DNA from: Candidatus Latescibacterota bacterium
GTDB lineage: Bacteria > Latescibacterota > UBA2968 > GCA-2709665
Length of the DNA: 64,000 bases
NCBI GenBank assembly: GCA_965205485.1
Contig: OZ242180.1
Location: 2,752,001 to 2,816,000 of the forward strand
Reading direction: 5' to 3'
Positions 60,051 through 64,000 of this stretch are shown here, piece after piece; within the stretch, counting starts at the first letter, position 1; the number at the start of each line of letters is the position of its first letter. The notes under the pieces were generated by a model. The model saw nothing but the letters and a program-made list of their open reading frames with translations, did not search any database and was not told where the DNA came from. A program made the translations under genes and the position numbers.

Positions 60051-61175
60051 TCACCGATTTTTCTTCGCGTACGCAAGGATGCCGTTAACGATCTTTTTCG
60101 CGTGGTGCTGCCGGTTCTTGTGATACCGGATTCGATAGGCCTCGTTCTCGTGGTGGACGTTGTGAACTTCAACGAGAATTTCGGCGTGGGCCTGATTATT
60201 CCGCAATACCGCCAGGTTCCGCCCCCGGATTTTAGCGGGGAGGTTCGGCTGGTGCAGGACCGAACGCATGACGCGAGCCAAATACCTGGAACGGCTGTCA
60301 ATTCTGCCCCGCCGTTTATGGTAGATTACCAGCGGACCCTTCGGGCGCCCGGGAGTGTTGTCCGCGTGCAGCGAAACAAACAGACTCCTGCCCCTTCGCG
60401 CTCCCTTTACGAAGCGGTTCGTCACCCGGACTCGCTGTGAAATATTGGCGCTTCTGGGCCGCACCTTTTCCGAATTCCTCCGGTTGTACCGCTCATCGTT
60501 GTAGACTTCGTTCTTTTCGTGCACGAATGTCGTTTTGGCCGGCAGGTTGTCGCGGATCAGATGATTGGGGCTGATCACCGTCAATGTCACCTCCGCGCCG
60601 AGCAGCCTGAGTTCTTTGAACATTCGCAACGCAATGTCGTACACGTATTCATCTTCGACCACGTAAACCCGCTGTTTCTTGCCTGCCAGGTTGGACACGA
60701 TGGCGCCCGGGTCGATTCCTCCGTGCCCGGGGTCGAGCACGATCCGCCATCCCTTCAGTGGTTTCCTTCTCTTCCTGGGCGCCTTGGCGAGAATCTCGTT
60801 GTCGAAGGCGCGCAACAGGATCTGGGCGCGTCGATAGTCCAGACCCGGGCTGGTTCGCGCCCTTTCGGAGTAGTTGCGATGCCTTTGCCTGCTCGCTTTC
60901 GGCTTTTGCCAGTAATATGGTCCGTTCGGCGCGTTGTATTTGGTAATACGAGGTGTCAGACGGAGTACCTGACCCGGATAGACGTTGTTGGACCGCAGCT
61001 TGTTGATCCGCTTGATTGCCCTGATGCTGGTCTTGTATTTCCTGGCAATCGACCACAAGGAATCGCCCTTTCGGACCTTGTGGACCAGCGAGAGTCCGGC
61101 GAGGGGACTTGCCAGCAGCAAGACCACGCAGAGCCCGGCGCTCAGAAGTCGCAAGAATCGAAGCTTATCCATCAT
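60051..61175 (-). CDS. LysM + N-acetylmuramoyl-L-alanine amidase (Amidase_3)
   Basis: Signal peptide, HKVRKGDSLWSIA LysM, LDPGHGG, SLHAD, LVEV. Confidence 0.85.
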   Translation of the reverse strand: MMDKLRFLRLLSAGLCVVLLLASPLAGLSLVHKVRKGDSLWSIARKYKTSIRAIKRINKLRSNNVYPGQVLRLTPRITKYNAPNGPYYWQKPKASRQRHRNYSERARTSPGLDYRRAQILLRAFDNEILAKAPRKRRKPLKGWRIVLDPGHGGIDPGAIVSNLAGKKQRVYVVEDEYVYDIALRMFKELRLLGAEVTLTVISPNHLIRDNLPAKTTFVHEKNEVYNDERYNRRNSEKVRPRSANISQRVRVTNRFVKGARRGRSLFVSLHADNTPGRPKGPLVIYHKRRGRIDSRSRYLARVMRSVLHQPNLPAKIRGRNLAVLRNNQAHAEILVEVHNVHHENEAYRIRYHKNRQHHAKKIVNGILAYAKKNR

Positions 61176-61428
61176 TGTTGTTATCCGCTGAAGCACGAGT
61201 AGACCCACGGGCGCACCTGCCCGTATCTCGAGAGAGTACTCCAGATTTTACGCCATTTGTCCGAAAAAGACAAGTCGGCTATGGCTGTGAACGAGCCTCT
61301 GGAGCCGATACAAGTCGGTTGTTTTCGCCTTGCGTTCGGTGTATTTCACCAATAATTGTTGACAATCATTCATCGAAATGAAATATAAATCGCTAAATAA
61401 CAGTTATTTATATGGTTTTTTGTGATTC

Positions 61429-61444
61429 GGGCACGGTCCTTGCG
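61429..61444 (+). promoter_or_regulatory. sigma54 (-24/-12) promoter of the psp-like operon
   Basis: gGGCACG-gtcc-TTGC with GG-N10-GC spacing; AT-rich tract and palindrome-like ggtgtatttcacc (about 61339) upstream. Confidence 0.7.
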
Positions 61445-61537
61445 TTATGTGGTCGGCAGATCGGCGGATGAGTGTCTGAATCCGGATTTTTTAACCGTGG
61501 CGGGCTACGGACACCCGCAAGAGAAAGGAGTACGACG

Positions 61538-62215
61538 ATGGCCAAGGGGATATTCTCCAGAATGGCTGACATCATCAAGGCCAACATAAACGACCTTCTG
61601 AATCGCGCGGAAGATCCGGAGAAGATGATCCGGCAGATGATCCTCGAAATGGAGGAGGCCGTTAACAAGGCGACGGCGTCCGTCGGGACGGCCGTGGCCA
61701 ACGAGAAACGTCTGGAGCGTCAGCTTCTGGACAAGACGGACCAGATCGAGGCCTGGCAGAAGAAGGCGGAACTGGCCGTGGAATCCGGCGAGGACGATCT
61801 GGCCAGGCGCGCTCTGGAACGAAAGGCCACGCTGGAAAAAGCCGCCGGGGATCTGGAAGCCGCGTTCGACGAGAGCCACAAGACCTCCGATCAGCTCAAG
61901 AAACAGCTTGGGCAGCTCAAGTCCAAACTGGACGAAGCACGCACCCGTCAGGGCGCGCTGATCGCGCGGCGACGCGCCGCTCAGGCTCGGAAGCAGATCG
62001 CCCAGGGCATTTCGGGCGTCGGTGACGACGCCTTTTCCAGCTTCGAACGCTTTCGCAGCCGGGTTGAGAATGAAGAAGCCGAAGCTTCCGCTCACGCGGA
62101 AATTGCCGGTGAAGATCCCTCGCTGGACGATACGTTCGAAAAACTGGAACGACGGAACACGGTGGAAGACGAACTCGAGGCGCTGAAGAACAAACTGCGC
62201 AAATCCGATGCGTGA
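61538..62215 (+). CDS. pspA: PspA/IM30 family protein
   Basis: MAKGIFSRMADIIKANINDLLNRAEDPEKMIRQMILEME, W..KAELAV..GEDDLAR.AL; RBS aaggag. Confidence 0.95.
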   Translation: MAKGIFSRMADIIKANINDLLNRAEDPEKMIRQMILEMEEAVNKATASVGTAVANEKRLERQLLDKTDQIEAWQKKAELAVESGEDDLARRALERKATLEKAAGDLEAAFDESHKTSDQLKKQLGQLKSKLDEARTRQGALIARRRAAQARKQIAQGISGVGDDAFSSFERFRSRVENEEAEASAHAEIAGEDPSLDDTFEKLERRNTVEDELEALKNKLRKSDA

Positions 62216-62849
62216 ATTTCGAAAAATCCTGGACGAAATCGCGTACGAGATCGACAGGACAATGCGCGACGCAACAGAGGCATGGCGTGATTTCAAGATG
62301 ACCCGACCCGCGCGGCAAGAGCCGGGAAGGGTTCGTCACCCCCGTTCGCGTCGGCTGTCCTTCCGATTCTCCGATCTGGCCACTGACGGGAGTTGTGCTA
62401 TGCGATACGCCTTCGCGCTGCTACTGAAAGTCACAGCGATTCTGTTCGTTTTCGGCGGTCTGATGGGCATAGTCTATTCCGGCTTCCGGTCGTCCGGTTT
62501 CATCCTGAACCCCCTTGACATTGTCATGGGTATCGCCGTAATCTCGTTCGCGCTGGTTTTCTGGCTGGCCGGCCGAAAGGTCCAGGTGTCGGCCGAGCAC
62601 AAGCGGTACGCGCAGTATCAACACCGCCTGCTCAGGCTCGCACGCGAGAAAGGCGGCAGCCTCACCGTTCTGGAGGCGGCTACGGACGGGAGGATGACCG
62701 TGGGAAAGGCAGAAGAGATCCTCGGTGCATTGGCCGTCGGCGGCAGCGCCGAGGTTCGGGTGTCAGAGTCCGGTCTCGTTGTGTATCACTTTCCCGAGAT
62801 TGAACATGGATCCGAAAAAACCCGGGCGAAACCGGTGTATGAACTTTGA
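62208..62849 (+). CDS. two-TM membrane protein with C-terminal winged-helix domain
   Basis: Overlaps the pspA stop; two hydrophobic helices (about aa 67-90 and 103-122); aa 141-198 follow a WH pattern. Confidence 0.75.
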   Translation: MREFRKILDEIAYEIDRTMRDATEAWRDFKMTRPARQEPGRVRHPRSRRLSFRFSDLATDGSCAMRYAFALLLKVTAILFVFGGLMGIVYSGFRSSGFILNPLDIVMGIAVISFALVFWLAGRKVQVSAEHKRYAQYQHRLLRLAREKGGSLTVLEAATDGRMTVGKAEEILGALAVGGSAEVRVSESGLVVYHFPEIEHGSEKTRAKPVYEL

Positions 62850-62876
62850 TACATTCGAAAATCACGGAGGGATGTC

Positions 62877-63092
62877 ATGTTTGAAGTCGGTATTGGCGTT
62901 GCGCTGATCGTCCTTGCCGTGGCGGTCCTCAAATACGTGGAGCGGCAGACAAAGGGTACCGTCCCCGGTAAGGTCGAGGAACGCCTGAATGCCCGGCTGG
63001 ACGACCTTGACAGGAGACTGACCGATATCCAGGAAATCATGATCGCGATCGACGAAAAGCTGAATCGCCAGGACTCGGGAGGCGCGTCGTGA
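62877..63092 (+). CDS. small TM + coiled-coil protein (PspB-like architecture)
   Basis: N-terminal TM then RLDDLDRRLTDIQEIMIAIDEKL; RBS ggagg. Confidence 0.75.
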   Translation: MFEVGIGVALIVLAVAVLKYVERQTKGTVPGKVEERLNARLDDLDRRLTDIQEIMIAIDEKLNRQDSGGAS

Positions 63093-63175
63093 ATCGCGCC
63101 AGGTTCACCGGATTACCTGAAGCGCGATCGGCCAGTATCAGAATCATATCTGCTCAAGAAACGGGGCGTTGAATC

Positions 63176-63550
63176 ATGAACACACAGCACATTCACGTCG
63201 GCGAGCGGATTCAGGGTGGGACGGCCGTTGTCACCATCAGCGGCGATCCGATCGCCCTGCCGGAGGTGGCGCCGCTCCGACGCGAAATATCGAACCTTGT
63301 AAACGGAGGCGCTCGCACCGTCGTGGTCGACCTTTCACGCGTGAACCACATGGGCGCCGCCATGCTTGGTGAACTGGCGAGGGGCATTAAAGCCACCCGA
63401 GACGCCGGAGGCGACCTGAGGTTGAGCGGCGTTTCCCGTCGTATCCGAAGAGTCCTCGCATTGACAGGACTCTCTCGATTCTTCAAGCAGGCCGAGATTG
63501 GAAACGGTACGACGGAAGCCGCCAGCCGAAACGTCAAAAAAGTGGCTTGA
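63176..63550 (+). CDS. STAS-domain protein (anti-sigma factor antagonist-like)
   Basis: VVVDLSRVNHMGAAMLGEL...GGDLRLSG...VLALTGL. Confidence 0.85.
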   Translation: MNTQHIHVGERIQGGTAVVTISGDPIALPEVAPLRREISNLVNGGARTVVVDLSRVNHMGAAMLGELARGIKATRDAGGDLRLSGVSRRIRRVLALTGLSRFFKQAEIGNGTTEAASRNVKKVA

Positions 63551-63615
63551 GACTTCAAATCGTCGGAATGCCGTCGCCACACAATCAAACGCGGGGACTT
63601 CAGAGGAGGGAAAGT

Positions 63616-64000
63616 ATGAGTTGGATTCTGGAACTGGCGTTGGCGCTTTGCCTGCTGATCGTTGCGGGTGGATACTCCGTTTATCTGATGACTCCCGGCA
63701 ACAAGAAGCCCAGTGGATCCACTGTGGGGATTTTCCTGGCGGTGGCGGCCGTCGGTTTCGTTGTCTGGGCATTCACGTCGGAACGGTGGAACCTGCTTCC
63801 TGGCGCCGAAGACATTCCCACTATTACCCTGACCGGCAATACCGCCGGTCTAACGGGTGAAAGCGTGAGACTATTTCTGGAAAATCAGAGACGCCTGGAG
63901 TCAACTGCCGGTAAACTCGAGGACGTCGCAGACCGTCTCGAGTTGGCGCAATCCGGAACAGGTCTGGGCATTGCGATGGAGATCGGCATTGGGATCTGTC
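63616..64000 (+). CDS. hypothetical membrane protein, runs off the right edge
   Basis: RBS gaggagg, ATG 63616; MSWILELALALCLLIVAGG...GIFLAVAAVGFVVWAF.., open to the window end. Confidence 0.65.
   Translation, partial: MSWILELALALCLLIVAGGYSVYLMTPGNKKPSGSTVGIFLAVAAVGFVVWAFTSERWNLLPGAEDIPTITLTGNTAGLTGESVRLFLENQRRLESTAGKLEDVADRLELAQSGTGLGIAMEIGIGIC

What the first reader, a model, noticed from the sequence alone, without database searches (positions are those of the whole stretch)
61429..64000. PspA (ESCRT-III) operon with a membrane-anchored ESCRT-II-like winged-helix protein
Seen: a sigma54-type promoter, pspA, an overlapping gene (62208-62849) with an amphipathic N-terminus, two TM helices and the C-terminal domain LLRLAREKGGSLTVLEAATDGRMTVGKAEEILGALAVGGSAEVRVSESGLVVYHFPEI (nt 62628-62801), then a PspB-like TM/coiled-coil peptide, a STAS protein and another membrane protein. 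No recognisable pspC or pspF in the window. Established: PspA/Vipp1 are homologues of ESCRT-III, and eukaryotic ESCRT-II (Vps22/Vps25/Vps36) is built from winged helices that nucleate ESCRT-III. Inference: the pattern L..LA...G..TV.E......A...L..L...G.A......G...Y.FP closely matches the C-terminal WH of Vps22/SNF8 as I recall it (from memory, unverified). This may be a bacterial membrane-remodelling module in which a TM-tethered ESCRT-II-like WH recruits PspA in place of PspC.
Basis: partly seen in the sequence, partly recalled or inferred. Interest (0 to 1): 0.85.

Follow-up and report, generated by a model that had tools for sequence, protein, structure and literature searches.

The report
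Membrane-anchored winged-helix partner of PspA
In this group of bacteria the membrane-repair gene pspA is followed by a small membrane protein whose winged-helix domain looks built for binding proteins rather than DNA and resembles a subunit of the eukaryotic ESCRT-II complex; it may hold PspA at the membrane, as the VIA1 protein does in chloroplasts, but binding is untested.

Summary
A sigma-54 promoter (58 of 61 related loci) drives pspA, which overlaps a gene for a two-TM, single winged-helix (WH) protein. pspA lies directly upstream in 100 of 101 carriers of the same class; 1 of 101 has PspC.

The WH family profile's best PDB match is human SNF8/Vps22 (E 5.6e-6; next 8e-4). Fold searches only tie Vps22 with generic WHs, and Pfam EAP30 is not met. 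Recognition helix plus wing are acidic (129 of 135), unlike ArsR/MarR controls (0 of 44), so DNA binding is unlikely.

The operon continues past the window to a histidine kinase and a receiver-domain, PspF-like activator, so 'no PspF' is a window artefact.

Against: in Gemmatimonadota the same WH family is not near pspA (0 of 30 loci), and binding is untested.

The concept is published (VIA1-VIPP1), and this scan found similar pspA/2TM-WH pairs in archaea. I found no paper on this bacterial single-WH operon. Verdict: it probably works like VIA1 but is not an ESCRT-II member; a new variant of a known kind.

The parts
61338..61350 (+). Candidate upstream activator site (imperfect palindrome GGTG-N5-CACC), 200 nt upstream of the pspA start
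   Evidence: Pattern found in 9 of 61 loci, 8 of them at -184 to -211; shuffle mean 1.06, maximum 4. The pattern was chosen from this window, so the count is generous; function inferred.
61430..61443 (+). Sigma-54 -24/-12 promoter
   Evidence: 58 of 61 loci vs shuffle mean 0.29
61538..62215 (+). pspA (PspA/IM30, ESCRT-III superfamily), 225 aa
   Evidence: PF04012 E 1.3e-50; TIGR02977 best NCBIfam hit, below its cut-off
62208..62849 (+). 2TM + winged-helix protein, 213 aa, overlapping the pspA stop by 8 nt
   Evidence: 15 of 25 distinct homologues start with the same ATG/TGA overlap octamer
62208..62300 (+). Lineage-specific N-terminal amphipathic helix (aa 1-31), part of a 64-aa extension
   Evidence: Helix 2-31 in the model; hydrophobic moment 0.73; conserved in frame in alignment A1; most distant family members lack it
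62388..62402 (+). Possible internal ribosome-binding site (GGGAG) and Met65, which would give a 149-aa form
   Evidence: SD-like word before the internal Met in 22 of 25 homologues; the Gly codon there is GGG/GGA in 24 of 25 vs 183 of 391 Gly codons gene-wide; databases call both 149 and 213 aa. Related sequences, so a hypothesis only.
62418..62570 (+). Two transmembrane helices (aa 71-89, 103-121), placing the N-terminus and the WH on the same side
   Evidence: Hydropathy; model. A cytoplasmic location is inferred.
62601..62825 (+). Winged-helix domain (aa 132-206) with acidic recognition helix and wing; wing tip E187-S188-G189 at 62766-62774
   Evidence: G189 invariant in 111 sequences
62877..63092 (+). 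71-aa TM + coiled-coil protein; first of three paralogous small membrane proteins sharing a C-terminal coiled-coil motif (PspB-like by architecture only)
   Evidence: tblastn among paralogues E 4e-12 and 5e-9; no PspB hit
63176..63550 (+). STAS / anti-sigma-antagonist-type protein; accessory, absent from many related loci
   Evidence: PF01740 E 5.8e-13; patchy
63616..64000 (+). 5' part of a 191-aa three-TM protein ending in the same coiled-coil motif (runs past the window end)
   Evidence: L001 4617-5192

Best explanation
A sigma-54-controlled, PspC-less Psp (membrane-stress) operon in which a two-TM protein presents a cytoplasmic, acidic, non-DNA-binding winged helix as a membrane docking site for PspA. 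It would recruit or nucleate PspA polymer at the inner membrane, the job done by PspC in enterobacteria and VIA1 in chloroplasts and cyanobacteria. Shown: gene order, promoter, fold, charge, linkage within the class, near-absence of PspC. Inferred: cytoplasmic topology; that the WH wing-tip loop binds PspA helix 1; that the small TM/coiled-coil proteins play a PspB-like part; that the downstream TPR kinase and receiver-domain PspF-like activator drive the promoter.
For: pspA is directly upstream in 100 of 101 carrier genomes (21 genera, 3 families, one class); the last is cut by a contig edge. It is also upstream in 21 of 26 metagenome loci, the other 5 beginning at the contig end. The two genes overlap, suggesting coupled translation. 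PspC is in 1 of 101 carriers vs 28 of 67 other genomes of the phylum. WH profile vs PDB: SNF8 E 5.6e-6 (29.1 bits), next EutK 8.3e-4; the same ranking came from a second profile. Recognition helix + wing charge: family -3.66 (129 of 135 at or below -1), close clade 54 of 54; ArsR +2.73 and MarR +2.64 (0 of 22 each). 122 of 139 family representatives carry a TM helix before the WH. The profile matches both WHs of roughly 530-aa proteins laid out as VIA1 is described (hhalign probability 97.8). VIA1 binds VIPP1 helix 1 through wing loops mutated at A171/S172/G173 and E385/A386/G387 (PMC13505992); the corresponding position here reads E187/S188/G189 with an invariant Gly.
Against: No binding data exist. 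In Gemmatimonadota the WH family (28 of 151 genomes) had no pspA within 1.5 kb in 30 of 30 loci, within about 5 kb in 17 of 17 regions, or in 3 further loci. Five stand-alone second matches occur in the own class. Close pspA homologues in family f9 have no such WH gene next to them or in the genome search. All linked cases are kin, so linkage and PspC absence may each be a single event. Fold searches do not single out ESCRT-II; yeast Vps22, Vps25 and Vps36 are not among the 58 PDB sequences listed. Vps25, not Vps22, is the eukaryotic ESCRT-III recruiter. No true VIA1 sequence could be fetched, so homology to VIA1 rests on architecture and recall.
Confidence: 0.55

Rival explanations
1. The protein is a Psp membrane hub, but the WH binds another operon product (the small coiled-coil proteins, the TPR kinase or itself). 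PspA contact, if any, goes through the lineage-specific N-terminal amphipathic helix, as with the C-terminal tail of PspC.
For: The best match is Vps22, a stalk subunit rather than the ESCRT-III recruiter. The N-terminal helix is peculiar to the pspA-linked clade, while the WH is shared with many proteins unlinked to pspA. PspC recruits PspA through its C-terminus (PMC6003685). The small proteins and the kinase are also well conserved in the operon.
Against: The extension is shorter and different in family f3, where linkage to pspA is as tight. The WH is the most conserved part. VIA1 gives an experimental precedent for WH-VIPP1 binding.
Confidence: 0.25
2. A general membrane-stress protein that is co-regulated with pspA but does not touch PspA; the Vps22 resemblance reflects a shared non-DNA-binding WH subtype.
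For: The family is widespread (1342 representatives at E up to 0.001), fused to TM2, RDD, TMEM43, zinc-ribbon and cyclase domains, and unlinked to pspA in Gemmatimonadota. Structure scores are tied.
Against: It holds the position directly behind pspA in 100 of 101 genomes while STAS, ECF sigma and flotillin genes come and go. Lack of linkage does not exclude interaction.
Confidence: 0.15
3. A membrane-tethered DNA-binding regulator of the operon.
For: Top Foldseek hits are MarR-type. Pfam member scans are led by MarR_2 and IclR at weak E-values. Popp et al. note HTH regulators beside pspA.
Against: The recognition helix and wing are acidic in 129 of 135 members vs 0 of 44 controls. The operon already has a sigma-54 activator.
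Confidence: 0.05

Closest known systems
VIA1 (CPLD50, Slr1603) - VIPP1 module of cyanobacteria and chloroplasts (PMC13505992; bioRxiv 10.1101/2023.10.10.561251; review PMC13051332)
   Same: Membrane-embedded protein with an ESCRT-II-like WH (Snf8 was among the top structural hits for VIA1) paired with a PspA/Vipp1-family protein; small-residue/Gly wing-tip loop.
   Different: One WH and two TMs instead of two WHs and three TMs; 213 aa; encoded directly behind pspA in a sigma-54 operon of an apparently non-photosynthetic lineage; interaction untested.
Eukaryotic/Asgard ESCRT-II subunit Vps22/SNF8/EAP30 (PF04157; PDB 3cuq_A, 2zme_A, 1w7p_A)
   Same: The C-terminal WH is the best PDB sequence match of the family profile (E 5.6e-6) and a top-tier structural match (Z 9.8-9.9; 22% identity over 77 residues to 3cuq_A).
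   Different: No tandem WH, no EAP30 hit, integral membrane rather than soluble. Vps22 is a stalk subunit; Vps25 recruits ESCRT-III.
Enterobacterial Psp system pspF/pspABC
   Same: pspA first in a sigma-54 operon; small TM/coiled-coil genes; an activator whose best NCBIfam match is PspF.
   Different: No PspC or PspB profile hit. The activator carries a receiver domain and a cognate TPR histidine kinase and lies downstream on the same strand. A 2TM-WH gene is second in the operon.
PspA loci with band-7/flotillin, NfeD and HTH genes (Popp et al. PMC9239133; Ravi et al. PMC11237479; Makarova et al. PMC11188069)
   Same: PspA next to flotillin, NfeD-type and two-component genes. [quoted passage not shown]
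   Different: In the passages read, those HTH/wHTH neighbours are DNA-binding regulators (for example PadR-like); no membrane-anchored single-WH family was described.

Membership tests
ESCRT-II Vps22/EAP30 | Winged-helix fold | tested here: met
   AF2 model pLDDT about 90 in the domain; Z 9.9, rmsd 2.2 over 69 residues to yeast Vps22 1w7p_A
ESCRT-II Vps22/EAP30 | Tandem WH repeat | tested here: not met
   One WH in the model and in the profile match
ESCRT-II Vps22/EAP30 | Pfam EAP30 (PF04157) above cut-off | tested here: not met
   No hit at E up to 1; none in the genome search at E up to 10; weak hits in 3 of 111 and 2 of 34 members
ESCRT-II Vps22/EAP30 | Closer to Vps22 than to generic WH domains | tested here: inconclusive
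   Yes by sequence profile (human SNF8 only); tied by structure; Foldseek ranks 15 and 18
ESCRT-II Vps22/EAP30 | Soluble subunit of a Vps22/Vps25/Vps36 complex | tested here: not met
   Two TM helices. Vps25 was not searched for separately in the genome.
VIA1 | Two WH domains with three TM helices | tested here: not met
   One WH, two TMs vs the description in PMC13505992
VIA1 | WH homologous to VIA1 WH | tested here: inconclusive
   No named VIA1 sequence was retrieved. The profile matches both WHs of Gemmatimonadota proteins with VIA1-like layout; that these are VIA1 relatives is inferred from layout and recall.
VIA1 | Wing loop between the beta-strands carrying x-S/A-G | tested here: inconclusive
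   E187-S188-G189 with invariant Gly matches the residue names mutated in VIA1, but no direct alignment was possible
VIA1 | Binds helix 1 of the PspA/VIPP1 partner | not testable with these tools
   Needs pull-down or reconstitution
Psp system (pspFABC) | PspA under a sigma-54 promoter | tested here: met
Psp system (pspFABC) | PspF activator | tested here: inconclusive
   Best NCBIfam match TIGR02974 at 343.9 bits, below the 443.55 cut-off and close to AtoC at 336; it has an extra receiver domain
Psp system (pspFABC) | PspB and PspC | tested here: not met
   PF04024 absent; PF06667 has no hit at this locus
DNA-binding wHTH regulators (MarR, ArsR) | Neutral-to-basic recognition helix and basic wing | tested here: not met
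   Net -2 in this protein; family mean -3.66 vs +2.73 and +2.64 in controls

The most novel reading that the evidence does not exclude
This unnamed, widespread membrane-tethered WH family is the bacterial sister of the ESCRT-II winged helix, and a close model of the single-WH progenitor that Hatano et al. postulate. It docks PspA-family ESCRT-III proteins generally; VIA1 is one duplicated member, and WH-guided nucleation of ESCRT-III at membranes predates the split of bacteria and archaea.
Probability: 0.3. Interest if true: 0.85.

Novelty: new variant of a known kind. Interest (0 to 1): 0.6.

Why it matters
How PspA finds damaged membrane in the many bacteria without PspC is open, and ESCRT-II-like partners of PspA-family proteins are so far published only for oxygenic phototrophs (VIA1). 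A small single-WH, two-TM protein encoded directly behind pspA offers a minimal two-protein system. It could test whether a winged helix nucleates a bacterial ESCRT-III polymer, the experiment the VIA1 authors name as outstanding, and it bears on whether the ESCRT-II/ESCRT-III interface is older than archaea. It also points to an unannotated WH family of more than a thousand 50%-identity clusters that generic HTH profiles could mistake for transcription factors.

Tried and rejected
Complex prediction of PspA (single sequence, no alignment) with the WH (aa 125-213, alignment) gave no verdict (score 0.00); this is evidence neither for nor against binding.

Attempts to fetch a named VIA1 sequence failed: the search for longer forms was empty; the homologue list was filled by close relatives; plasmids gave one unnamed hit; PDB and viral contigs gave nothing useful.

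Alignment-seeded neighbourhood scans with A3, A4 and A5 could not run because the alignments were too divergent. The single-protein scan of GTDB gave 3 loci. Neighbourhoods outside two phyla therefore remain unsurveyed. No family member was found in plasmids or viral contigs.

Vps25, Vps36 and yeast Vps22 are not among the sequence hits, and Vps25 and Vps36 are not among the fold-search rows shown; absence there is not exclusion.

The WH tree (79 rows, 72 columns, quick method, one-clade test unfinished) is too weak to order events; pspA-linked rows fall in two supported subgroups within an unresolved node.

Two charge controls were too small and were replaced, which anchored 22 of 30 ArsR and 22 of 24 MarR loci (6 weak MarR loci were left out beforehand).

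The fold search of the VIA1-like model was uninformative (pLDDT 57). Atlas hits were unnamed clusters.

The Cell Reports VIA1 paper and the Vps25-Vps20 structure paper were not held, so Vps25 interface residues were not mapped.

Rejected: membership in ESCRT-II; DNA-binding regulator; 'no PspF-like activator'.
Full report
Observation. pspA (61538-62215; PF04012 E 1.3e-50) overlaps by 8 nt a 213-aa gene (62208-62849) with no significant Pfam family. Its AF2 model (54-sequence alignment, mean pLDDT 76.8) shows an N-terminal helix, two long helices containing the TM segments (aa 71-89 and 103-121) and a confident winged helix. The -24/-12 site at 61430-61443 recurs in 58 of 61 distinct related loci with enough upstream sequence (shuffle mean 0.29), and the genome has an RpoN-box match. 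Homologue labels and a phylum of 168 genomes distinct from Gemmatimonadota suggest a Latescibacterota-type lineage; this is inference.

The operon runs past the window. After the 71-aa, STAS and 191-aa genes come a 125-aa membrane protein, an ECF sigma factor, a three-TM protein in the NfeD position (label inferred, no profile hit), a flotillin (PF01145), a TPR histidine kinase, and a receiver/AAA+/HTH sigma-54 activator. The activator's best NCBIfam match is PspF (343.9 bits, under the cut-off; AtoC 336). The 71-, 191- and 125-aa proteins are paralogues sharing a C-terminal coiled coil, PspB-like in layout but with no PspB hit. In related genomes the recurring core is pspA, the WH gene, usually one to four small coiled-coil genes, and, where the fetched DNA reaches that far, the kinase and activator; STAS, ECF and flotillin are variable.

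Linkage. In the own phylum 101 of 168 genomes have a strong WH match (106 places, E at most 2.3e-10; six more genomes have only weak matches), all in one class. pspA lies directly upstream at 93 places by coordinates and 7 more by fetching. One is cut by a contig edge but keeps the rest of the operon, and 5 are second, stand-alone matches in genomes that also have the linked copy. In metagenomes 21 of 26 loci show the pair and 5 start at the contig end. PspC occurs in 1 of the 101 carriers and 28 of the 67 others. These are kin, so this may be one event. Against generality: in Gemmatimonadota the family is found in 28 of 151 genomes, with no pspA within 1.5 kb in 30 of 30 loci, within about 5 kb in 17 of 17 regions, or in 3 further loci whose genomes have pspA elsewhere. 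Close pspA homologues in family f9 lack the WH gene.

What kind of WH. A profile search of 1.84 billion representatives gave 1342 hits at E up to 0.001, mostly 150-aa two-TM proteins, with fusions to TM2, RDD, TMEM43, zinc-ribbon and cyclase domains. Of the 147 new representatives retrieved, 139 carry the WH and 122 of those have a TM helix before it. Against all PDB sequences, two profiles rank the second WH of human SNF8/Vps22 first: E 1.6e-4 vs 0.029 for the next WH, and E 5.6e-6 vs 8.3e-4; the archaeal ESCRT-III WH 2xvc appears at E 0.38. The reverse test is weak: EAP30 does not hit this protein and hits 3 of 111 and 2 of 34 members faintly, behind MarR_2 and IclR. By structure, yeast and human Vps22 rank 3 and 4 of 48,161 chains (Z 9.9 and 9.8) but are tied with AntR and Z-alpha (Z 10.1, 10.0; likewise). 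Foldseek finds nothing under E 0.001 and ranks MarR first. The resemblance is therefore real at sequence level and undecided at fold level. The clearest functional signal is charge: recognition helix plus wing sum to -3.66 on average (129 of 135 at or below -1; close clade 54 of 54), against +2.73 for 22 ArsR and +2.64 for 22 MarR domains, none at or below -1. That argues against DNA binding.

Relation to VIA1. VIA1 is a three-TM, two-WH protein of cyanobacteria and chloroplasts that binds VIPP1 helix 1; mutating its wing loops (A171/S172/G173, E385/A386/G387) weakens binding and function (PMC13505992: parts 1-4 of 6 read; supplement searched). The preprint reports Snf8 among its top structural hits (passages), and a review proposes that VIA1 recruits Vipp1 (passages). 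The wing tip here reads E187-S188-G189, with Gly invariant in 111 sequences. The family profile also finds, in 16 Gemmatimonadota regions, proteins of about 530 aa laid out WH-TM-hydrophobic stretch-WH-2TM, as VIA1 is described (hhalign probability 97.8 for the family, 95.3 for this domain alone). No named VIA1 sequence could be fetched, so homology to VIA1 itself is inferred from layout and from a recalled resemblance.

Mechanism. Most likely (0.55), envelope stress activates the kinase/activator pair, sigma-54 transcribes the operon, and the coupled WH protein gives PspA a membrane docking site through its wing, in place of PspC. The gene order, promoter, fold, charge and linkage are shown; each interaction is inferred. 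A caution: Vps25, not Vps22, recruits ESCRT-III in eukaryotes (PMC9192718, passages), so 'Vps22-like' does not itself imply PspA binding. Rivals: the WH binds another operon product while the N-terminal amphipathic helix contacts PspA (0.25; PspC acts through its C-terminus, PMC6003685 passages); co-regulation without contact (0.15); DNA-binding regulator (0.05).

Novelty. Four literature searches on this question (one search was for the Vps25 interface) and term searches in Ravi 2024 (supplement), Popp 2022, Makarova 2024, a 2025 review and a phage preprint showed no description of this family or operon. These were passages only; subscription papers, web-app tables and bioRxiv supplements were not seen. 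Makarova et al. already note PspA beside wH genes, and Hatano et al. postulate a single-WH progenitor of ESCRT-II. This scan earlier reported similar pspA / two-TM-WH pairs in archaea (unchecked AI notes, not tested here). Verdict: it works like VIA1-VIPP1 (probable), is not a member of ESCRT-II or VIA1 by the features tested, and is a new variant of a known kind; interest 0.6.

Noticed in passing
L001 9027-12062 (just past the window end): TPR histidine kinase plus receiver-domain activator whose best match is PspF, conserved with the operon across the class; suggests a Psp response driven by a two-component system rather than by PspA-PspF release.
   Followed up: partly
L126-L140 and L144 (Gemmatimonadota): Proteins of about 530 aa with two clear WH domains and a degenerate third, laid out like VIA1, in a phylum where the VIA1 passages I read do not mention it; not next to pspA and not found in the window's phylum.
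   Followed up: partly
window 62388-62402: Conserved SD-like word before Met65 suggests two isoforms (213 and 149 aa), with and without the amphipathic N-terminal extension.
   Followed up: partly
window 60051-61172 (- strand): LysM + Amidase_3 gene transcribed divergently from pspA and kept there in most f1 and f2 loci examined.
   Followed up: no
L095 3-931: In a Gemmatimonadales genome three small TM/coiled-coil genes lie directly upstream of pspA, similar in layout to the 71/191/125-aa genes; L093 and L094 have a different small gene before pspA (CesT-like by recall, not tested).
   Followed up: no
G000:C1:593787-594458 and 1414435-1415136: Two further pspA paralogues in the same genome, neither beside a WH gene; natural controls for binding specificity.
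   Followed up: partly
L163 2539-2748 (G015): Behind pspA only a 69-codon open frame covering the WH matches; the TM part seems lost or broken.
   Followed up: no
L064-L066: Gemmatimonadota 150-aa 2TM-WH genes are followed directly by a gene with CxxC (zinc-ribbon-like) motifs.
   Followed up: no
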